64,000 nucleotides of DNA, from assembly GCA_051047955.1 (NCBI GenBank), contig JBPGPT010000035.1:62001-126000 (forward strand), read 5' to 3'. The position numbers were made by a program, and so were the translations under genes. The notes below the pieces were generated by a model. The model saw only the letters and a list, made by a program, of their open reading frames with translations, had not been told where the DNA came from and searched no databases. Below, in pieces: positions 1,947-60,467 of the stretch. The first letter of the stretch is position 1; each line of letters starts with the position of its first letter. The DNA comes from Cystobasidiomycetes sp. EMM_F5 (taxonomy: Eukaryota).

Positions 1947-3589
<1,643 letters not shown>

Positions 3590-48385: not shown

Positions 48386-51300
48386 TTATAAGCCTAGCAA
48401 GCGCATGATAACATAACCGACAGTAATTATGACTGAGGTTGCGATGAAAGAGGCGGGTATCTGGAGAAAGACACATTCAGCCCTAGCCTAAGAAGGCGAG
48501 ATGCCTACATACTCCTGCCTTCAGGAAGTCGTTTACACTGAGATATCGATTGCCCACTTCGTCTTCTAGATTGACTGCCATGAGATTTGGAAAGCCTGAA
48601 ACTGGCAAACCCATTCCTGCAGAACAGATGAGTGCCGTTGCCTGGTGCGCATCCAGATGTCAGCGGCAGCAGGACGGATTTGACAGATTGTCAGCGACTC
48701 ACCATGATGAGCAGGGTGGAGTGCGGCGGGCTGAGTGCGGCACCGATCTGTGCTGCGATAGGCGCTATAAGGACGCTCGCGATGCTGTGCGAGACAAAAG
48801 TCGCCACAACGAGTGCTAAGACACTGAATATAGCCAGGATCGGCCAGACATCTAGGCCTTTTACCGCTTCTTCTATCAGAGCATCGCTATCAAGGCAATA
48901 TAAAGTCAGCCAATTTCTATCAATGACAACCATCACACTTACAGATCTGCCAACAAGCCAGATGATAGTACACCTTTGCCAAGGGCTATACCTCCCATTG
49001 CCAAAAAGACAATGCTCCATGGCTGCCAAACCGCGTTATCAGCAAGTATCGCGCACGAACGCCTTTGCATAAACTTACGAAGTTATCGAAGTCTGCTTTG
49101 CGGAGGATACCAGTTCCGAAGAAGGCGACAAGCGGGATGAGTGCGATGATGCCCATATCACCGACAACGGATTCCAATTGATGCTCGATACAGAGCAAGC
49201 CGACGGTCAATATTGTGACAGCACAAACAAACCATTGGGTCGATGTAAATTTCTCCCTGGCAGGCTTGACGGGATTGATATATGTGTCTTTACTCCATCC
49301 GTACAGCCAGGAGAGAAGCGCCCAGATAGCGACGATGCTGATAGACGCCACAGGTAGGGCTATAGCAAACCACTGTGCCCAAGAAAGAGGTTCAGACATG
49401 TATGAGATGGCGATGAGATTTTGAGGCGATGCGATCGGAGAAGCCATACCGCCCAAGTTGGAGGCCAACGCAATGCCGAGGACCAGAGCCTTGCTGTATG
49501 TTGATCGCGGGGGAAGTGTGCGGAGAATGGGCTGAATGAGCGAGAAACAGAGCACGGGAGCGGCGACATTGGATATCCACATGGAAGCAAAGCAAGCTAC
49601 GCCCATGTATGCCAGAAGGACAGCACCCGGTTTTGTGCCAGCCAGCGAAAGCACGCGAGAAGCGAGAATCTTGTCGATGTTTTGCTTTGATAATGCACCA
49701 GCCAGCGTGAATCCCCCAACGAGCAGAACAATTGTGCCGGTAAACATCTGGCTGAATATGTATTTGCTGGCTTCAGTCGCTGTGAGTCTTCGATCCTGTC
49801 CGTCCATGGACCGCAATACTCGCAAGACCACAACAAGGAAGGGGACGAGCAAAGACGTCGCAAACAGCGGTATGACCTGCGAGATATACATAAGACAGAT
49901 GGTTCTTGTAAGTCTACCGGGTACCTACCTCCATTGCCCAGAATATGCTTGCTAGCACAAGGATCGCCAGACAATTGCGTTCTTCCACTCTATCGAATGT
50001 CCCGCTCGTCAGTATGGAGATGAAGGCTACCACGGCGACTGTACCGCCAAGCGTTTCTTTCGTTGCCCAGCTGGGTATCCTGAATCTACCCAGCGGCGTA
50101 GACACAGCCGCTGAATCATGACTCTCATGCTCAATCTCCTTCTGCGAAACAATCGGCTTGTCCATACTCGCGTGTCCTCGTTTGGGACCATGGGAATTGA
50201 CAGAGCTTCCTCGCCCTGCTCCGGACCAGCCTTTTCTCTCCAAGCCAATCATGTCTCGCCAGATTGTATTTCGCTCCCACACCACATGTTCACGCAATTG
50301 CGTCTGTAACTGCCGTAACGCGTCGGCGGTATCACCCCGCGTTGCGACTTTGGCGTATAGTGGAATGACAGACTGCAAACCTTCGTCCAGTTTCGATTGC
50401 GTATCTGGATGGAATGGGTGAGATTGCGCAATAATGGTCGACATGTACCATTTCTGCAATTTAGAGTCTGTTACCTTGTCAAACTTTTTCAGAATCTTGC
50501 GGAAGCCGGCTAGTGATTCACAATCGTCGGCAATTAATACAAAGACCCGTTGCAAGCGGGATAGATCACTCACTCTGATTCAGATTGACATATTCCTTCA
50601 GTTGTGACAGCTCACGGAAAAGCTGTTGTAGGCGCAGCTTGAAGGTGATGCGCATGTCTATCGCTCGTCGACTGTTACTGGCCCAGATGTCTGTCACTGC
50701 ATCACCTGAATTTGCACCGAATGACGAAGCCCGACGCCTCGAAGCTGATTTTGCAGAGAGTCCAGGTGTCAATGGCGGTTTTGGGCTGATTGTATTCTGA
50801 TTGTGATTGAGCGCTGGTGCAGCAGCAGCCGCTGTACGATCCAGTTGACGATCAATCTCGGCTGCTGTTTCTGGCGGGAGCTGAGCGGCTGCATCCCCTG
50901 AATTCGAAACACCGCTTCCTCTGCTATCTGTATTTACCAGACCAGAAAACTCGGCTACGCCGCTTGTTGATTCGCCGGACGAAGCTTCGCTTCCCATGGA
51001 CCTCTTTCGACCATGTTGTTGTGCACTTGATGCCCGAGAAGCACTATTCGAGCGCCTGCGCGTGCTGGACGAGCTGGTCCCGAAAGCGCTCTTGATTGCC
51101 TTTGTAGACTTCTTGAGCAATGTTCCTGGAGTCACGTCTTCGTCTCCACTATCTCCAGATTCGCCATCTGCATCGCTGTCGTCGGCGATGTCTCCAAAGG
51201 CACCTTCCTCCTCTACCTGTCGCGCCTCGTCGTTGACTGCATCTAGCTCATCTAGCAGTTCACCTTCCTTCTGTTGGTAGAATTTGACAATCTTGTCGAG

Positions 51301-53429: not shown

Positions 53430-55251
53430 TGACTGACACCCCGCCCAGTCCCCTTACTATGGCAGCACTCCCCTCGGACTGGCCTCACCGCCAGCAGCAT
53501 TCTACGAGCACGGCCTGCTCCAGGGGGAGGTGGAGGTAGTCAGACTGGCGGGACAGTTTCAGGCTTCGGATGTGGGGCTCTGCTTTCGATTCAGTAGAGT
53601 ATTTTCGCTCATTCTTACTCTTGCTCGCAGCCCCGAGTCAACTCGCCAACGCTCAGCGATACCGAATCTCGACTGGCAAATGCCCTGCCAGGCTACTTTG
53701 CCCAACATCAGCATCAACTCCGACACCCTTCCCCGCCAGAAGCAGAGCCACGACTGTCGCACGCTCGTCTGGCAGTGGCAGATGCGCCAGACGTCAAACC
53801 CTACGGATGCAATTCCCCAAGCTGCGTGCCCTCGCCTGCCCTTCTCGAACGAGCACAGGCAGCCTTCCAGCGAGACTTGGCAGACTGGAAAGCACAGTAC
53901 GATGCACTTCAAGCTGATCCCGCTACAGCAGGGCAGAGACCTCGTGCACGCCATCCTTCCCTCGCATCGATAGGAGTGTGCTTTAATGCCTCGAGAGATT
54001 TGCTAGATCACCTCAGGGATGTACATGATATGAGGCAGAAGGGAGAGGTGCATGTCAGTGAACTGACGGCAGCGGGGCCAGATGGCGAACTGCGATACCA
54101 TCCTCAGCAGATCGACGCGGCAGTCAGGGGCGAGGATGGCAAGATGTTTAGGTGTGCTCTGATTGGGTGTCAGAGGACCTGGAAGGTCAGCACTCTCCAC
54201 ACATACTCTGTATTCACCTGCTCAGTATCCGTTTCGCCTACAGAATGCAAACGGCATACAGTACCACTGTCTGAAATCACTTACCGCTCTTGAACACAAT
54301 ATCGACACTGTCAACAGGAGACGAGGTCCAGGAGGAACCGTCTCACAGAAGCGTAAAGCAGAAGGATCGCCCGACACTCATACTCGACCATACAAGAGTA
54401 AAGCTCGCTCTACCTCTGCGGCAGCGAGGCAATCCTCGCCTAAATCATCAAGGAATTTCATCCCAGTGCCTCAGGGTGTGTATTTTTTCATCTCAGCGTC
54501 TTGTAAGTCTTCAGTACTGACGAAATCATCATTCAAACCTGCAGAGGGCGACTCTTTGCAAGTCCCGTCCCCGTCCTCCGCTCTCTTCCCACTCACACCC
54601 GCACAATCCTCTGCCGACATACCCGGCAACACAGTGACAGCACCTCCTCTAGGAGTCCCAAAACATTCCAATCTCTTCATTCCCAAAGCGAATGCTGGAC
54701 GGACGTCCTCTCGACCATCCCCCTCAAACATACCCGCCGTCCGACTTCCTCCTCTCCCTCCGCGTCCCTCCTCTTCATATCTCCCTCCTCAATCGTCCAG
54801 CTCCCACATACCCGCTCTGACGGGCGTTCGACCGTCCACTATTCCACAAAGCGGAATGACGACACACGGCTATGTGTTTGCGCAGGGTGAAGCCTTCAGA
54901 CCACACAACCGACCGGTGGACGCTCTGTATTTCCTAAACGCATTATGCGCAGTAGGAGGTAATAAGACTTTGCAGCAACGGCTATCGGATCGCAGAATTG
55001 TCAATGCGCTCTTGGATGCGGAATTCATTAAAACATTACAAGGGCTCGCGAATGATGGAGGGGTTTACAGTCTGGACCTCGTGGATGACCAGGGATTCAT
55101 CAAGGCACCAAGAGATGAAATCAGACCGATACTGGAGGACAAAGAGGCGAGGTTCAGTAAAGATGACGTCGATTCGGCGATTTTGAAATTGGCAAGTACG
55201 CTGCAGCAGGTTGGGTTGGGTGACCCGCTGGACGGTATGGACGTTATTTGA
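53430..55251 (+). CDS. C2H2 zinc-finger protein with an Sfp1-like finger (5' end uncertain)
   Basis: KPYGCNSPSC...CFNASRDLLDHLRDVH; FRCALIGCQRTWK|NANGIQYH...EH; basic NLS-like segment and a Pro/Ser-rich region. Confidence 0.7.
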
Positions 55252-55653
55252 GTGAGCGAGTGCGAAGGACAGGATGAGTAAAGAAAACATGTAGCTTGCG
55301 AGTACGTCTTGGACATGTCTAGTAGTGAGTGTAGCGGATTTCGAGATATCGGTAGTTTCTTGTCTAGCTGTTGAGACGTTGCTTGTATTACCACACGGTT
55401 CAGCTTGTAGCGGCTTTCACACAGACAACAAGGAACCATGCATCCCGAACTGATTTGAGTGTTTGTGATTGCCCTTGTCGCTTCGTTCGGTCAGCTTCGC
55501 CTTGGATGTTCTCCACCTATCGACACAAAATGCAATGGCTGCTTGGCTAAACATGTGAATGATTACTACGCTGATTATACCATTACCACACCACTGACTA
55601 CCACACTTCGTGCTAATGGATCTCTGTCATATCTCCACCTTTAACCTCTACAA

Positions 55654-56802
55654 ATGGGGCATGCAACAGCGTACAATCCGAGACGCAGCGGTTCTCACAA
55701 GCAGAAGAAGCGCTCACGAAAGGGCGTCCCAACATCCTTGATGTGCATTGTGATCGTCCATTGAAGAATCCGTGAGGCTCCAAAATTCGTTATTTGCTGT
55801 CGGACAGGCTGGCTCACCGAGCTGCCCTTTTCAGATGGAAGTTTCCACCTTCGTTTACAAACTTCTTCTCCCCCGCTGCTTCAGAACGCAACTTCTTTAT
55901 CATTCATGAACATGATGCAACTGCTTATGTAGGCTCGTTGTTGTAGCGATGATGCCCGCTAAGACTGTGTTGCGATAGCACTGGGACCTTCGGCTGCAAT
56001 GTAGCTACGTGTATGATCAAGATGGAACACTATCATGGGTGAGTGGCCTCACGACGCCGCATTTCATGCTGTTCACACTGATTGAATGCTGGACAGGCTG
56101 TACCGCGTGGATTCTCAAATTGGAAGCCGAACGAGAAGCGTCTAGCTGTACAGACTCCACTGCATGGCATAAGCTATTCTACATTCGAGGGCGTGTCGCC
56201 GCCTTTCGGAAGTACGCTCATCTCAGATTTTGGGACATATTCCATCAAGACGTCCGTCAGTGCTCGAGCGAAGGGAAAGGACCGAGAGCGAGCGACTCCC
56301 GAGCGTGACCATGAGGATGATGATGACGAAAACGGACGAGGCGAAGAGAGGGCGTTGGCAGATGGCTTCGCGAGGCACGCTTTTGTTATTGAGCTGAAAG
56401 GCATGCGATATACGATGCGACTTTCCTTGACCTTTCGCCAGGGTGCTCATGACTCAAAAGGGTGAGCTACCTCGTGCTGCCCGATGTGTTTGACGACTGT
56501 ACTCATTCCCGGCTGATGCCTCGCTCGTCGACAGCGTACAGAAGCGGTCTTGGATCGCTCAATTAGCTCCAGCGCATGATGGTAGCTATCTCTACGAAGA
56601 TACGAGGCTGGATCTCGAGAACGCATCCATCCTTTCCGGTCGTATCATGAAAGGCGGGCTGCAACTGTTGCCTTGTCCAGCCATTTGCTTAGTCTTCTGA
56701 TATTTATTTCCGCGTACAGAAGTATGGACCGCTGGTGGAAGTTTGTACAGCTGCAGGGACCCGCCCATCTTCGAAGATCTTGAGGGCATCACCTTGGAAT
56801 GA
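55654..56802 (+). CDS. Stand-alone LigD-type DNA 3'-phosphoesterase (LigD_N/PE domain), about 6 exons
   Basis: Splicing of introns 55743-55807, 55929-55978, 56039-56096, ~56462-56533 and 56654-56719 gives RNFFIIHEHDATAY|HWDLRLQ...GTLSW|AVPRG...EKRLAVQTPLHGISYSTFEG...GSTLISDFGTY...FVIELKG...SWIAQL...SILSGRIMK|E. This matches the LigD PE pattern FVVQxHxAxxLHYDFRL...SWAVPKG...KRLAVxxEDHPxxYxxFEG...WDxGTY...SVLSGR. Confidence 0.88.
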
Positions 56803-56818
56803 GTGCGCCAACCCATTC

Positions 56819-57984
56819 CTATGAACGTTTGAATGAACACTCGTAAAGAATGAAGGCGAGATATGCCGCCAGTAGGATGATGCCAGATATGCTGGTCAGA
56901 GTCCGTTGTGTGGAACGCGACCACACGACAGCACCCAATGCCAAAGTCGAAGCAAGTAATACTGCAATTTCTACCAGACTGGCGCTACTTGCGGATTCGC
57001 CATACACGTATGTGACGCCCAAGCAGAGAGTGAGGAGGAAGATGTTGCTGCCGACGGTGTTGGCAGCCATGACGCCCAGATGGGCTTTACGACCGCTAGA
57101 CACGGCGACAAACTTTTCAGGAAGCGTCGTCGCAATGCTCAAGAAGACGATTCCAAATACGACGTCAGACATTCCGAGTGCGTCGATGATGGATGTGGAC
57201 GCTTGAGTGAGCACAAAGCTGCTGAGCAGAATGGCTGCGAAACCAGTAATCAAGAGCGATATGTGATACAGTGTGGAATGCCTGCTACTGTATGTTTTAA
57301 CGGTTGGTGCTGATACGCTGCCATATGCGCCCGGCATCGCTCTGCGAGAGATTGGCGTGTTTTCGTCGTCGGTGCTGTTGGAAGCGTCACTTCCACTGTC
57401 GGAATCGCTATCGCTGTCTGACAACTCAGGTGCAGCCAAGCGACCTCTCACGATTGCGTACGCAATGGATGCGATGTAGACTGCAAAGGTCGCAATGAGA
57501 AGATACCCGATGATGACTTGCGCTCCAGCCGTAGTCTTGAGGTATAAAAGCGGAGAGATTGCAAGGGTGAGAACCGTCAGGACTGCGGCATAGATGCGAG
57601 AGCTTTGATCAAAGAGAATGCCATCGGGCAACGTTGAAGGGCGGTAAAAGAGAAGTCCAAGCGAGAATGCGCCTAGGATGTTTGATATGCATGATCCTAA
57701 TATGTTGCCGAGTGCTAAAGCTGGTCTACCTCGAGACACCGCAAAGATGACTACCGCGAGCTGAACACGCAGGTCAGGATTCAGTACTCAGCGCTGAGCA
57801 TACAGTCCAGACGGACCTCTTCCCACTCTGCGCCGGCTGTGAGAAGCGCAATGATGCCCTGCGGGATCCCAGTCTTTTGCGCGACAATGACCGTATGGTC
57901 GACGAAGATATCAGCGCCCTTCTCGAGCACTACCAGAGCACATATGAAGGCAGAAACATTGAAGAAAACATTGTCCGGAAGCAT
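56819..57984 (-). CDS. Ca2+/cation antiporter (CaCA, YrbG-like)
   Basis: Two alpha-repeats (TAGAEWEE...GNILGSCISNILG and SIATTLPEK...ANTVGSNIF), about 10 TM segments, and an acidic Ser/Asp loop. Confidence 0.88.
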
Positions 57985-58183: not shown

Positions 58184-60467
58184 CTACAGCTTCGCTTGAG
58201 GCCGCTTCTTGGGAACGTAAAGCTGTACAAAGTGACCCGTAGCACTCTTGAAGTCCTTCCTAAGCAGTTTACCAGCACTGTCATCGAGGGAATCGAGGCG
58301 CAGGAAGACAATCAGGACTTGAGTCTTCGTATAGTTGAATGACAACCTACTTGGACTTGGGCAGAGCAGGCAGGATCACAAGACCACCCCGCAGCCATTT
58401 GTAATCGATGAGTTTCTCCTCGACGAATCGCCGAACCGAATGCGCCCATTCTACTGATTCAATGGTCGCTTTTCCGGCCTTTTCGCAAGCTTCCAGCAGT
58501 TGTGTATTGCGAGGCACAACATAAGCGATAGGATACTCTGTTGCATCGTCGTCCGAGTAGACCGAAGTGACGCCGGTATCGGCAACACTGTCCAGACTGT
58601 TAATGAGAGCCTCGAGCTCGCTTGGCGCGCATTGGAATCCTGTCAACGTTCTAATGTCAGTCACCTTTACACCTGTACTAGGTTAGCGTAGAAACTGACC
58701 CTTCACTTTGATCATTTCCTTCAAGCGGTCGGTGATGTGGAGATTGCCGTCGGTGTCGATGAGCCCAACATCACCCGTTCTATTCCATCCGTCTTCCGTC
58801 ATAGATTCGGCAGTAGCTGCCGGATTGTCGAGGTAGCAATTCATCAAGCTTCCGCTTCGAATGCAAATCTCGCCCTCCTGGCCAATAGCAAGCGCTATCG
58901 CGAAGTATCAGCGTATTGATCTGCCCTCCCGAAGTCGGAGAATTCTTACTCTTCTTCTCATGATCAACAGACATGATCTTGACTTCTGTTCCATACATTG
59001 GTTGTCCAGACGCCGTCTTGGCAGCACCGAGCTTATCCCATGTCAAGTGGTATGTCTGTGTAGATCCCGCATGTTCCGAAGTGCCGTAGCCCATACGAAT
59101 GAGGAATCCAAGTCTCTTCCACACCATCTCGATGACGGCCCATCCTAACGGCGCGCCGCCAGACGTTGCAGCGCGCACAGTCGAAAAGTCGTACTCGGCG
59201 ACAAAGGGCGCTTTCGCGAGAATGACACCGACCGGCGCAGCGATGTGAAGATGAGTGGCACCGTACCGTTGCATCAGTTCCATGTATACACGTGGGTCGA
59301 ACTGACCGAGAACAGGAGACGAGTCATTTGGGCATGCGCATTGTACGACAAATCTATAGTACCTACCTTTGATATGATGACTGTAGTATATCCAGCAGCA
59401 ATACCAAGATTCATGACATTTGACAAGCCGAAAACGTGGAAGAATGGTGGTAAGCCCATAAAGACCTCGTCATTCTTGTACTGCGTGTTGCTAAACCACG
59501 CGGCTTGTAGATTGTAGGTGAGATAGGCGTGACTGATGACCACGCCTTTACTCTTTCCAGTCGTTCCGCTACTCCACAAGATAAGTGCCGTCCGTCTTTT
59601 CGCCTCTTCACAGTCGTTCTTTGCATCGTACTTGGGCATGATAAACTCCTTTTCGCTTCCGGGCGCGTCGAGAAGGGCCTTCCAATCGCTATATTTTCCG
59701 GTAGATACCCTTGGCTTGTCGATGGGTGCCAAGCCATAATCCTCATTGGCAAGCTCCACGGTAAAGATACGATTCCTGAGCGTATCTCTTGCGACTTGCG
59801 GCACTTCTTTCAATGCTTGCTGAACGGCTTCTAGACCATCTGCTCCGGCTAATGTGACGATAACTGATGGCTTGGAAGCTTCAATGATGTGAGCGAGTTC
59901 GGTCGCGCGGTATGCAAAATTGACGGTTGTTCTAGAAGGAAGCGAGACACGACGTCAGGCGATGCTGCGACCGGTTATGATACTTGGGTGACCTACGCAG
60001 TCAGACCAGCAGCCCATGCACCAATCTCACACACCACAAAGGGTATGCAGTTTGGCAAGTGAAGGAGTACGACGGGCGACAGGATGGGATCGGAGATGGG
60101 ACCAGGTCTGAAAGGTGCAGGCTTCAAACCAAGCTTGTTTCGCAATCCAGAAGCGAATCGCAATGAGTCTTTACGAAGTCTTGCGAATGATATTGACGCG
60201 CCTGTGAGACGACGACGACAAAATGACGGCATGAATCATTAGCTACTGCGACACTGTACAGGTACGACAGAGCTACTTGCCTGAAGTCCCATCAATGAAA
60301 GCGGCTTTTTGGGGCAGCGTTGGCCGACTGAGAGCGTGGCCTCTTGCATTCGCTGGACCAGCTTCCGCTACGGGATGACCGCGTACGAACGGGTCACTCA
60401 GGAGCATCTCGGATATCGTCTGGCTGTAGACAAACGACGGAGCGTAGGCGCCGACGTGGGCAGTCAT
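58184..60467 (-). CDS. 4-coumarate-CoA-ligase-like acyl-CoA synthetase with PTS1
   Basis: WSSGTTGKSKGV (AMP binding), PFFHVFG, SGGAPLG, GYGTSE, TGDVG, DRLKEMIKVKGFQCAPSELE, GKLLRK. Ends QAKL*. Confidence 0.92.

What the first reader, a model, noticed from the sequence alone, without database searches (positions are those of the whole stretch)
55654..56802. Intron-fragmented stand-alone LigD 3'-phosphoesterase: a bacterial-NHEJ-type end-healing enzyme hidden in a fungal genome
Seen: no ORF in the track reveals this gene. Joining canonical short introns in phase gives H-D-A-T-A-Y-H-W-D-L-R (an intron falls between the two His), SWAVPRG, KRLAV, H-G-I-S-Y, FEG, DFGTY and SILSGR, plus an N-terminal basic NLS-like stretch (KQKKRSRK). 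Established: in Pseudomonas LigD PE the residues His42, His48, Asp50, Arg52, His84 and Tyr88 form the Mn2+/phosphate site; stand-alone PE proteins are reported in archaea and some fungi, and to my knowledge the fungal ones are uncharacterised. Inference: this is a nuclear 3'-end-processing repair enzyme with no fused ligase or polymerase, fully intronised and so an old acquisition. The Glu82-Asp83 equivalent reads Pro-Leu. As I recall, Glu82 is needed for the monoesterase but not the diesterase reaction, so activity may be biased towards 3'-ribonucleotide removal.
Basis: partly seen in the sequence, partly recalled or inferred. Interest (0 to 1): 0.85.

Follow-up and report, generated by a model that had tools for sequence, protein, structure and literature searches.

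The report
Intron-split fungal LigD-type 3'-phosphoesterase gene
A yeast-like basidiomycete carries a real, intron-split gene for a stand-alone relative of the bacterial DNA-end-cleaning enzyme LigD phosphoesterase; such fungal relatives are already in the databases but have never been tested at the bench.

Summary
Four collinear + strand pieces (55835-55928, 55979-56038, 56097-56461, 56535-~56700) lie in different frames. Canonical GT-AG introns of 50, 58 and 73 nt join them into a LigD 3'-phosphoesterase (PE, Pfam PF13298) domain. The longest exon alone passes the Pfam cut-off. The spliced model scores 69 bits against a profile built only from prokaryotic PEs, while the best of 200 shuffles scores 3.5. 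All six residues essential in Pseudomonas PE are present (His42, His48, Asp50, Arg52, His84, Tyr88). Glu82-Asp83 reads Pro-Leu, and no N-peptide is recognisable.

The window matches Cystobasidiomycetes sp. EMM_F5 (Pucciniomycotina). The protein belongs to a Pucciniomycotina clade (Mixia, Rhodotorula and others) whose members all lack Glu82 and Asp83. The nearest full-length relative folds as the PE beta-barrel (Z 16.9 and 15.4 to solved PEs).

The first exon (55654-55742, weak GTGCAT donor) is provisional, and so is the 3' end. No RNA data could be found.

Fungal PE homologues are already named in NCBI and UniProt and were noted in print in 2010. This is a new member of a known, biochemically untested, group.

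The parts
55654..55742 (+). Exon 1 (provisional). It runs from the ATG through 29 codons plus 2 bases and carries the basic patch KQKKRSRK at 55699-55722.
   Evidence: This is the only ATG exon that keeps a basic patch like those upstream of the PE domain in 6 of 8 Pucciniomycotina homologues. However, the donor GTGCAT is weak against 11 annotated donors in the window. The codon score is uninformative at -0.01 bits per codon. Other ATG/donor combinations are open, for example ATG 55535 with donor GTGAAT at 55555.
55743..55834 (+). Intron 1 (provisional): 92 nt, GTGCAT...TTTTCAG, with a CTCAC branch-like site.
   Evidence: An alternative acceptor at 55807 is also in phase. Reading through gives a stop at 55762.
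55835..55928 (+). Exon 2: the lead-in and first barrel strand, ...ERNFFIIHEHDATAY. His42 is at 55911-55913, and the Gln40 equivalent is His (55905-55907).
   Evidence: Matches the Pucciniomycotina profile at positions 73-103 with E = 1e-5.
55929..55978 (+). Intron 2: 50 nt, GTAGGC...GATAG, with a CTAAG branch-like site, phase 0, lying between Tyr47 and His48.
   Evidence: Reading through gives a stop at 55944. In the ORF fragment of a relative (P0004/P0026), homology also begins exactly at HWDLRL, preceded by ...Q, which fits an acceptor at the same site.
55979..56038 (+). Exon 3: HWDLRLQ...DGTLSW. His48 is at 55979-81, Asp50 at 55985-87 and Arg52 at 55991-93.
   Evidence: The profile alignment runs across both junctions without a gap at either one.
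56039..56096 (+). Intron 3: 58 nt, GTGAGT...GGACAG, with a CTGAT branch-like site, phase 0.
   Evidence: The relatives P0003 and P0004 read DGTLSWAIPRG as one uninterrupted ORF, so splicing here restores exactly the sequence they encode without an intron. In P0002, homology starts at AIPKG after ...QQ, which suggests the same intron.
56097..56461 (+). Exon 4: AVPRG...KRLAVQTPLHGISYSTFEG...DFGTYSIK, then the acidic loop (about 56250-56345), then FVIELKGMRY...

Residue equivalents:
- Lys66 equivalent: Arg (56106-08)
- Arg76: 56139-41
- Glu82-Asp83 equivalent: Pro-Leu (56157-62)
- His84: 56163-65
- Tyr88: 56175-77
   Evidence: - Pfam LigD_N scores 32.3 bits against a cut-off of 31.1.
- It matches PDB chains 5dmp, 3p4h, 2lj6 and 3n9b.
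- ORF fragments of relatives are 50-72% identical.
56462..56534 (+). Intron 4: 73 nt, GTGAGC...CGACAG, with a CTGAT branch-like site, phase 2.
   Evidence: Reading through gives a stop at 56463-65. The junction gives ...KG-VQKRSW..., which aligns with ...VKRSW... of Mixia P0006.
56535..56700 (+). Exon 5: the last barrel strand (KRSWIAQL) and the conserved C-terminal motif SILSGR-IM (56626-56649). The preferred stop is TGA at 56698-56700.
Evidence: Matches profile positions 269-319. The 3' end is not verified.
56720..56802 (+). Possible extra 3' segment behind a good-looking acceptor (CTGAT...TTTATTTCCGCGTACAG, 56719). It is coding only if a poor donor is used: 56639, 56642 or 56667.
Evidence: The donors GTCGTA, GTATCA and GTTGCC carry bases at positions +3 to +5 that are seen in 0 or 1 of 11 annotated donors. 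No frame shows a coding signal. It is more likely 3' UTR.

Best explanation
This is a genuine, intact, intron-containing nuclear gene of a Pucciniomycotina yeast. The window is identical in a 417-residue stretch to a protein of Cystobasidiomycetes sp. EMM_F5. The gene encodes a protein of about 257 aa that consists of one LigD-type 3'-phosphoesterase (PE) domain, with no ligase or polymerase module.

**Inferred mechanism, by homology with Pseudomonas, Korarchaeum and Methanosarcina PE**
- Arg52 and His84 (with Tyr88) bind the scissile 3' phosphate.
- The enzyme trims a 3' end of a broken strand back to a ligatable 3'-OH.

**Predicted activity bias**
- The protein lacks every determinant that is specific for the 3'-phosphomonoesterase step in PaePE. 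Glu82 is Pro, and there is no recognisable N-peptide with Arg14, Asp15 and Glu21.
- It also lacks Asp83, which is otherwise invariant.
- It keeps Arg76 and a basic residue at Lys66.
- I therefore expect mainly a 3'-phosphodiesterase (resection of a 3'-terminal ribonucleoside or similar 3' block) with weak 3'-phosphatase activity, like the N-peptide-less archaeal CkoPE.
- It would serve the eukaryotic end-joining or strand-break repair machinery in the nucleus.

**Status of each step**
- Shown: the gene, the domain, the residue pattern and the clade.
- Inferred: metal use, substrate, activity bias, location and pathway.
For: **Gene and domain**
- Pfam hit on exon 4 alone: 32.3 bits against a cut-off of 31.1.
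- PDB sequence hits to PE chains.
- Four collinear exon pieces are the four best matches in a six-frame scan of 54900-57400, and this is the only such locus in the window.
- The spliced model scores 69.1 bits against a prokaryote-only profile and 144 bits against the Pucciniomycotina profile. The best of 200 shuffles reaches 3.5 and 3.9 bits respectively.
- The three core introns are GT-AG, 50-73 nt, each with a CTRAY-like branch site. None is a multiple of 3. Retaining intron 2 or 4 meets a stop within 5 codons, and retaining intron 3 shifts the frame for 89 codons before a stop.

**Junctions**
- Relatives read DGTLSWAIPRG without an intron (P0003, P0004).
- Homology in those relatives breaks exactly at HWDLRL.

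**Residues**
- The six essential residues, plus Arg76, are present.
- In 58 of 58 sampled prokaryotic PEs these seven residues and Asp83 are invariant, and Glu82 is Glu in 56 of 58. The window has Pro-Leu at 82-83.
- None of 13 fungal PEs, nor the window model, aligns to profile positions 1-30, the N-peptide.

**Literature passages**
- Glu82, Arg14, Asp15 and Glu21 are monoesterase-specific (PMC3300020; PMC8656161).
- The N-peptide is needed for vigorous monoesterase activity (PMC3082917).
- The His84 equivalent bonds to the main chain, not the side chain, of the Glu82 equivalent (PMC3082917).

**Constraint**
- Five ORF fragments from relatives are 50-72% identical over exon 4. The invariant columns cluster on the catalytic strand and on DFGTY, while the acidic loop varies.

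**Fold**
- The nearest full-length relative (Mixia P0006, 38% identity) was modelled at pLDDT 78.
- It matches PE structures only: Foldseek ranks 1-7; VIA Z 16.9 to 5dmp and 15.4 to 3n9b, with the next unrelated chain at 3.5.

**Host context**
- ORFs are identical to EMM_F5 proteins.
- GC content matches the rest of the window.
- The flanking genes are eukaryotic.
Against: - There is no transcript evidence. No RNA run was listed.
- The Pfam model could not be run on the whole spliced protein, and the window's own protein could not be folded. Only a 38%-identical relative was folded.
- Exon 1 has a weak donor and no coding signal, and the 3' end is unresolved.
- The window's protein sits on a very long branch, 2.22 changes per column. 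That could mean relaxed constraint or a changed function.
- Asp83 is invariant in the prokaryotic sample, yet its role is not described in the passages I read. Its loss, together with a Pro next to His84, might impair catalysis rather than merely bias it.
- The papers disagree on Gln40, which is His here. PMC3300020 links it to the monoesterase in a figure legend, and PMC8656161 links it to the diesterase.
- No full-length protein of 213 aa or more containing exon 4 was found among 5.8 billion clusters. I therefore cannot show that any public annotation models this gene.
Confidence: 0.8

Rival explanations
1. It is a catalytically impaired PE-fold protein (a pseudo-enzyme or a nucleic-acid-end binder). 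Loss of the invariant Asp83 and of Glu82, a proline beside His84, and fast divergence have left a scaffold that binds 3' ends or partners but does not hydrolyse them.
For: - Asp83 is present in 58 of 58 prokaryotic PEs and Glu82 in 56 of 58, and both are absent here.
- The branch is long, 2.22 changes per column.
- Gln40 is replaced by His.
Against: - All six residues whose alanine mutants kill both activities are kept, here and across the Pucciniomycotina clade.
- In the five closest relatives the invariant columns include the Thr-Pro-x-His...Tyr strand, which suggests selection on the site.
- Glu82 is dispensable for the diesterase.
Confidence: 0.12
2. It is an active PE enzyme, but its natural substrate is RNA or another phosphoester rather than DNA breaks, or it works in mitochondria rather than the nucleus.
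For: - PE chemistry needs a ribose 2'-OH next to the scissile phosphate.
- CkoPE prefers single strands (abstract of PMC3258152).
- The first 45 residues of the model have no acidic residue, which also fits an organelle presequence.
Against: - The two archaeal stand-alone PEs characterised in PMC3082917 heal 3' ends of DNA primers, per the passages I read.
- Lys-rich patches of the KRxK type upstream of the domain recur in 6 of 8 relatives, whose N-termini are otherwise acidic and not presequence-like.
Confidence: 0.15
3. It is a decaying pseudogene or a bacterial contaminant or recent transfer, not a working fungal gene.
For: - The splice signals at the first intron are weak and the 3' end is ambiguous.
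- No public full-length model was found.
- No RNA holder was listed, although that is not evidence either way.
Against: - There is no frameshift or stop in about 228 codons of the four core exons.
- The spliceosomal introns have branch sites.
- GC content equals the surroundings.
- The gene is embedded between intron-bearing eukaryotic genes of the same contig.
- It is conserved in relatives, with invariant catalytic columns.
- It nests within a fungal clade.
Confidence: 0.04

Closest known systems
Pseudomonas aeruginosa LigD PE domain (PDB 3N9B, 3N9D, 2LJ6)
   Same: - Pfam family PF13298.
- The same six essential residues, plus Arg76.
- The same strand order in the profile alignment.
- The fold of the nearest fungal relative matches at Z 15.4, rmsd 2.4 A over 143 residues.
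   Different: - Stand-alone, not fused to ligase and polymerase.
- Eukaryotic, with four spliceosomal introns.
- Glu82-Asp83 replaced by Pro-Leu, Gln40 by His and Lys66 by Arg.
- No N-peptide (Arg14, Asp15, Glu21).
- A five-residue insert after Arg52 and an acidic loop of about 25 residues after the DFGTY strand.
Stand-alone archaeal PEs: Candidatus Korarchaeum CkoPE (3P4H), Methanosarcina MbaPE (3P43), Methanocella PE (5DMP)
   Same: - A single-domain protein.
- CkoPE also lacks the N-peptide. The paper predicted weaker monoesterase for PEs lacking the N-peptide and concluded that the N-peptide is needed for vigorous monoesterase (PMC3082917 passages).
- 5DMP is the best sequence and fold match.
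   Different: The archaeal enzymes keep Glu-Asp before the catalytic His: the aligned 5DMP and 3P4H read T-E-D-H where the window reads T-P-L-H. They also lack the acidic loop and the long N- and C-terminal extensions of fungal proteins.
Annotated fungal LigD_N proteins:
- Mixia osmundae G7E9H9 / XP_014568542
- Rhodotorula araucariae GAA6057050
- Rhodosporidiobolus ruineniae GAA6036507
- Meredithblackwellia KAM0750924
- Chytrids (Spizellomyces, Gaertneriomyces, Rhizophlyctis)
   Same: - The same family, and for the Pucciniomycotina entries the same clade (SH-aLRT 100).
- The same loss of Glu82 and Asp83.
- The same acidic Thr/Ser-rich loop.
- The same C-terminal S-x-L-T-G-R-x-M motif.
   Different: - The window's protein is much shorter (about 257 aa against 370-540).
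- It lacks the conserved N-terminal region of the clade: profile positions 1-72 have no match anywhere in 54900-57400.
- It lacks the long C-terminal helix.
- It is the most divergent member.
- The chytrid proteins keep Asp83 (5 of 5) and are closer to the prokaryotic sequences.

Membership tests
LigD 3'-phosphoesterase superfamily (Pfam PF13298 LigD_N) | A significant match to the family profile. | tested here: met
   - Exon 4 alone scores 32.3 bits against the gathering cut-off of 31.1, E = 1.2e-7.
- The whole spliced model scores 69.1 bits against a stand-in profile built from prokaryotic PEs only, with the best of 200 shuffles at 3.5.
- The Pfam model itself could not be run on the joined protein.
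LigD 3'-phosphoesterase superfamily (Pfam PF13298 LigD_N) | The six essential active-site residues: His42, His48 and Asp50 (Mn2+), and Arg52, His84 and Tyr88 (phosphate). | tested here: met
   All six are present at the aligned columns. Their codons are located. Each is invariant in 58 of 58 sampled prokaryotic PEs.
LigD 3'-phosphoesterase superfamily (Pfam PF13298 LigD_N) | [quoted passage not shown] | tested here: inconclusive
   The window's spliced protein could not be submitted for folding. The nearest full-length relative (Mixia P0006, 38% identity to exon 4) gives a model of pLDDT 78 that matches PE structures only: Z 16.9, 15.4, 14.9, 12.7, 12.2 and 10.8, with the next chain at 3.5.
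LigD 3'-phosphoesterase superfamily (Pfam PF13298 LigD_N) | Mn2+-dependent 3'-phosphodiesterase and/or 3'-phosphomonoesterase activity on 3' ends. | not testable with these tools
   This needs a biochemical assay of recombinant protein.
Monoesterase-proficient PE subclass (PaePE and MbaPE type) | An N-peptide with Arg14, Asp15 and Glu21, plus Glu82. | tested here: not met
   - The alignment of the window model to the prokaryotic profile starts at position 30-31, as it does (positions 31-33) for 13 of 13 fungal PEs.
- No frame in 54900-57400 matches an N-peptide.
- Glu82 is replaced by Pro.
- This does not affect membership of the superfamily, because CkoPE also lacks the N-peptide.
Bacterial multidomain LigD (NHEJ ligase) | A PE domain fused to ATP-dependent ligase and primase-polymerase domains, with Ku as partner. 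| tested here: not met
   - Only LigD_N is found in the exon pieces and in 10 full-length fungal homologues.
- The gene lies between an upstream stop at 55249-51 and a convergent Na/Ca-exchanger gene that ends at 56819.
- The rest of the genome could not be searched for Ku or ligases, because no genome is held.

The most novel reading that the evidence does not exclude
The Pucciniomycotina PE clade, with this gene as its most stripped-down member, may be a eukaryote-adapted PE. It has lost Glu82, the otherwise invariant Asp83 and the N-peptide, which would make it a dedicated 3'-phosphodiesterase, for example one that removes 3'-terminal ribonucleotides or other 3' blocks. It has gained a conserved acidic Thr/Ser-rich loop, whose CK2-like sites resemble the phospho-motifs that recruit end-processing factors to XRCC1 and XRCC4 (that resemblance is recalled, not tested). 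Through this loop the enzyme might be tethered to the eukaryotic Ku-Lig4 or strand-break repair machinery. That would be a bacterial-type end-healing module wired into eukaryotic repair.
Probability: 0.2. Interest if true: 0.6.

Novelty: new member of a known kind. Interest (0 to 1): 0.35.

Why it matters
PE is a repair enzyme with a fold and active site of its own. It has been studied only in bacteria and archaea.

In 5 literature searches I found only one-line statements that eukaryal homologues exist, and no biochemical or genetic study of one. A short, single-domain fungal member with the catalytic hexad intact but all monoesterase-specific determinants missing is a natural experiment on how the two PE activities are separated. 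It is also a convenient candidate for the first eukaryotic PE assay and knockout.

For genome annotation, it shows that a gene whose longest exon has no ATG can be recovered by profile-guided splicing. I found no full-length public protein model that holds this exon.

Because the family is already recognised in fungi, the finding itself would not surprise a specialist.

Tried and rejected
- **RNA evidence.** No RNA holder was listed for 55400-57000.
- **Whole genome.** None is held for this window, so Ku, Lig4, Tpp1 and paralogues could not be looked for.
- **Close full-length relatives.** The word-index search of proteins of 213-2000 aa with exon 4 found none at E <= 0.001. The search with Mixia residues 140-345 found only Mixia itself. 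The profile search (A2) was swamped by prokaryotic LigD: only the 8000 best candidates were scored, 120 were listed, and the Pucciniomycotina rows of the query itself were not returned.
- **Genomic DNA of relatives.** The one metagenome scan returned one locus, L001. It is an ordinary bacterial Ku-LigD region and of no use for intron comparison.
- **Neighbour look-up.** 3 of 10 neighbouring ORFs were in the collection, and none carried a name.
- **3' end.** Four models were compared. Read-through to 56700 and donor 56667 score 69.1 and 69.5 bits. That is a small difference.
- **Codon-usage score.** It was trained on 3604 annotated codons. It does not separate the alternative tails or exon 1 from non-coding sequence: all lie between -0.22 and 0.06 bits per codon, against 0.23 +/- 0.19 for true 20-codon windows.
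- **SGR joined to SMDRWW.** A join of SGR directly to the SMDRWW frame, which would look most like the family motif, has no GT-AG solution (my reading).
- **Exon 1.** Enumerating ATG, donor and acceptor combinations gave 84 open solutions, most with GC donors, so splicing logic alone does not fix the 5' end.
- **P0005.** This 665-aa hit at E = 5.5e-21 is a tandem-repeat protein with no LigD_N match. I dropped it from all alignments.
- **P0012 and P0016.** P0012 (an internally duplicated bacterial PE) and P0016 (truncated) were used only in the first alignment, not in the tree or the profiles.
- **Nair et al. 2010 (PNAS).** The paper is not held. What it says is taken from citing papers.
- **Earlier findings of this scan.** There were none by place, sequence or words.
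Full report
**1. What is in the sequence**

Between 55654 and about 56800 on the + strand there is no long ATG-started ORF. There are, however, four stop-free pieces in three different frames whose translations are recognisably parts of one domain.

The pieces are joined by three canonical introns:
- GTAGGC...TAG, 55929-55978, 50 nt.
- GTGAGT...CAG, 56039-56096, 58 nt.
- GTGAGC...CAG, 56462-56534, 73 nt.

Joining them puts the pieces in phase. Each intron carries a CTRAY-like branch site 15-25 nt before the AG. None has a length divisible by three. Reading through intron 2 or 4 meets a stop within five codons, and reading through intron 3 shifts the frame and runs 89 more codons to a stop at 56306.

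**2. Is it more than chance?**

- The longest exon (56097-56459, 121 aa) alone matches Pfam LigD_N at 32.3 bits, above the curated cut-off of 31.1. It also matches the solved PE chains 5dmp, 3p4h, 2lj6 and 3n9b.
- I built a profile from eight full-length Pucciniomycotina homologues and ran it over all stop-to-stop pieces of 54900-57400 in six frames. The four exon pieces were the four best matches. They lie in profile order (73-103, 105-119, 120-265, 269-319) and all on the + strand.
- Over the whole 64-kb window, no other piece scores better than E = 0.98.
- The spliced model scores 69.1 bits against a profile made only from prokaryotic stand-alone PEs (sampled proteins under 300 aa). The best of 200 shuffles of the model scores 3.5 bits. 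The alignment runs through both N-terminal junctions without a gap at either one.
- I could not submit the joined protein to the Pfam scan or to the structure predictor. Those two direct tests remain open.

**3. Independent support for the junctions**

No RNA run could be listed. The exhaustive protein search with exon 4 did return prokaryote-style ORF calls from unnamed contigs of close relatives, 50-72% identical over exon 4.

- Two of them (P0003, P0004) read DGTLSWAIPRG as one uninterrupted frame. This is exactly what splicing out 56039-56096 produces here. Those relatives lack this intron, and the junction is therefore right.
- In P0002, homology begins at AIPKG directly after ...QQ, as expected for an acceptor at the same place.
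- In P0004/P0026, homology begins exactly at HWDLRL after ...TQ, which fits the phase-0 intron before His48.
- The fourth junction gives ...KG-VQKRSW..., which aligns with ...VKRSW... of the annotated Mixia protein.

**4. The ends are not settled**

*5' end.*
- The exon-2 frame has no ATG, so an upstream exon is required.
It provides a Lys/Arg patch like those found upstream of the domain in 6 of 8 Pucciniomycotina homologues.
- Against this, the donor is weak. Eleven annotated introns of the same contig, which I reconstructed exactly from four NCBI proteins, have A or G at +3, A in 9 of 11 at +4, and G in 10 of 11 at +5. The codon score of exon 1 is uninformative.
- Other combinations are open, for example ATG 55535 with donor GTGAAT.

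*3' end.*
- The acceptor at 56719 looks good.
- Every available donor carries bases at +3 to +5 that are seen in 0 or 1 of the 11 annotated donors: GTCGTA at 56639, GTATCA at 56642 and GTTGCC at 56667.
- Read-through to the TGA at 56698-56700 keeps SILSGR-IM and scores about 2 bits higher.
- I therefore prefer a protein of about 257 aa ending at 56700, with low confidence.

**5. Whose gene is it?**

- Six long ORFs of the window are in the protein collection letter for letter. Five of them cluster with NCBI proteins of Cystobasidiomycetes sp. EMM_F5 (KAL7004975 and KAL7004991-94). The one pair I aligned is 417/417 identical.
- The neighbours are ordinary eukaryotic genes with introns. Downstream there is a convergent Na/Ca-exchanger gene ending at 56819, and upstream an ORF without a Pfam family that stops at 55249-51.
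- GC content at the locus (0.51-0.52) equals that of the window.
- This is a resident fungal gene, not contamination or a recent transfer.

**6. The family**

- Exon 4 finds 22 proteins at E <= 0.001 among 1.84 billion representatives. One of them, P0005, is a spurious repeat protein.
- Named members are from Mixia osmundae, Rhodotorula araucariae, Rhodosporidiobolus ruineniae, Meredithblackwellia eburnea and the chytrid Gaertneriomyces semiglobifer. UniRef calls the Mixia protein a 'DNA ligase D 3'-phosphoesterase domain-containing protein'.
- The profile search adds Spizellomyces, more Gaertneriomyces and Rhizophlyctis.
- The ESM Atlas lists eukaryotic LigD_N clusters of 51 and 74 members, commonest in Ascomycota (a lead only).
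- All ten full-length fungal proteins I scanned carry LigD_N and nothing else.
- I built a quick maximum-likelihood tree of 76 rows: the window model, 8 Pucciniomycotina, 5 chytrid, and 62 prokaryotic proteins under 300 aa. The longer LigD fusions were left out.
- In that tree the window falls inside a Pucciniomycotina clade (SH-aLRT 100), and all fungal rows lie on one side of a branch (96).
- The tree has caveats. The search was short. The tool warned about long branches, and the window's branch is 2.22 changes per column. The prokaryotic sample was biased towards hits of a fungal profile. There is no root.
- The tree is consistent with one old fungal lineage but does not prove it.

**7. Active site**

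Numbering follows PDB chain 2lj6, whose index equals the native Pseudomonas numbering.

| PaePE position | In the window |
|---|---|
| His42, His48, Asp50, Arg52, His84, Tyr88 | all kept |
| Arg76 | kept |
| Lys66 | Arg |
| Gln40 | His |
| Glu82 | Pro |
| Asp83 | Leu |

- In 58 sampled prokaryotic PEs, the six essential residues, Lys66, Arg76 and Asp83 are invariant, and Glu82 is Glu in 56 and Asp in 2.
- None of the 13 Pucciniomycotina-type rows that cover this strand (the window, 4 ORF fragments and 8 full-length proteins) has Glu at position 82 (one has Asp) or Asp at position 83.
- The chytrids keep Asp83 (5 of 5) but Glu82 in only 1 of 5.
- No fungal PE (0 of 13), nor the window model, aligns to the N-peptide part of the prokaryotic profile.

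What the papers say, from the passages I read:
- The six residues are needed for both activities.
- Arg14, Asp15, Glu21 and Glu82 are needed only for the 3'-phosphomonoesterase (PMC3300020; PMC8656161).
- The N-peptide is needed for a vigorous monoesterase (PMC3082917).
- The catalytic His bonds to the main-chain carbonyl of the Glu82 equivalent, so a side-chain change there need not disturb it (PMC3082917).

From this I infer an active Mn2+ enzyme that is biased towards the phosphodiesterase reaction. The role of Asp83 is not described in what I could read, so its loss is the main uncertainty.

**8. Fold**

- The window's protein could not be folded.
- The nearest full-length relative, Mixia P0006, was modelled with an 81-row alignment at mean pLDDT 78.1. 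The domain blocks are mostly in the high 80s and 90s, with a dip to 56-61 in two loops.
- Foldseek ranks 1-7 are all PE structures (TM by target 0.66-0.78), and rank 8 has E = 0.08.
- VIA-align gives Z 16.9 (5dmp, rmsd 3.4 A over 163 residues) and Z 15.4 (3n9b, rmsd 2.4 A over 143 residues). The first unrelated chain has Z 3.5.

**9. What is new and what is not**

- Stand-alone PE homologues in eukaryal proteomes were reported in 2010. This is cited in PMC3082917, PMC3258152, PMC3300020 and PMC8656161. The original paper is not held.
- Databases already name fungal members.
- My five literature searches found no biochemical or genetic study of a fungal PE. This covers only the open-access library that was searched.
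- The gene is therefore a new, unusually short and divergent member of a known but untested group.
- I did not see the clade-wide loss of Glu82, Asp83 and the N-peptide, or the fungal acidic Thr/Ser-rich loop, described in print. These are the points worth an experiment.

**10. Verdict**

- Location and activity bias are unproven.
- The 3' end is probably wrong.
- The novelty is overstated.

Noticed in passing
window 56250-56345; homologues P0006, P0009, P0013-P0015, P0017-P0020, P0022: All fungal PEs carry an acidic, Thr/Ser-containing loop between the DFGTY strand and the next helix, for example D-x-[DE]-T-[TP]-x-[DE]-E. In the alignment of 11 fungal proteins two of its columns are nearly invariant. 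The prokaryotic consensus has no such loop. It looks like a run of acidophilic-kinase sites. Its function is unknown.
   Followed up: partly
relatives P0002, P0003, P0004 compared with window 56039-56096: There is an intron presence/absence difference among close relatives. Two ORF fragments read straight across the SW|A junction, while the window, and apparently P0002, have an intron there.
   Followed up: partly
homologues P0009, P0014, P0017, P0018, P0022 (N-terminal regions): About 25 residues before the first barrel strand, Pucciniomycotina PEs share a D-F-x-T-[PR]-[FY]-A-S motif that faintly recalls the bacterial N-peptide (K-R-D-F-x-x-T-P-E-P). HMMER does not align the two. The window's model has no such motif.
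   Followed up: partly
window 56819-57787 (-), 58780-59283 (-), 48986-49891 (-), about 2025-3589 (+): The neighbouring genes are:
- a Na/Ca-exchanger family protein, convergent with the PE gene, only 17-118 nt from its possible stops;
- an AMP-binding enzyme fragment;
- a CitMHS-type transporter;
- a RIO2 kinase.

None has an evident link to DNA repair.
   Followed up: no
window 54163-55251 (+): A 362-codon open frame lies directly upstream on the same strand. It is Ser/Pro-rich, has no Pfam family and no match to the N-terminal region of fungal PEs. It is presumably a separate gene, but a long first intron linking it to the PE exons was not excluded.
   Followed up: partly
P0005 (one search hit, 665 aa): A tandem-repeat protein of roughly 64-residue units scored E = 5.5e-21 against exon 4 through nine repeated partial matches, but it has no LigD_N hit. 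It is a false positive of composition or repetition.
   Followed up: yes
L001 1-2475: The only metagenome locus returned is a bacterial region with the end of a Ku-like gene followed by a PE-ligase LigD. This is an ordinary bacterial NHEJ operon.
   Followed up: no
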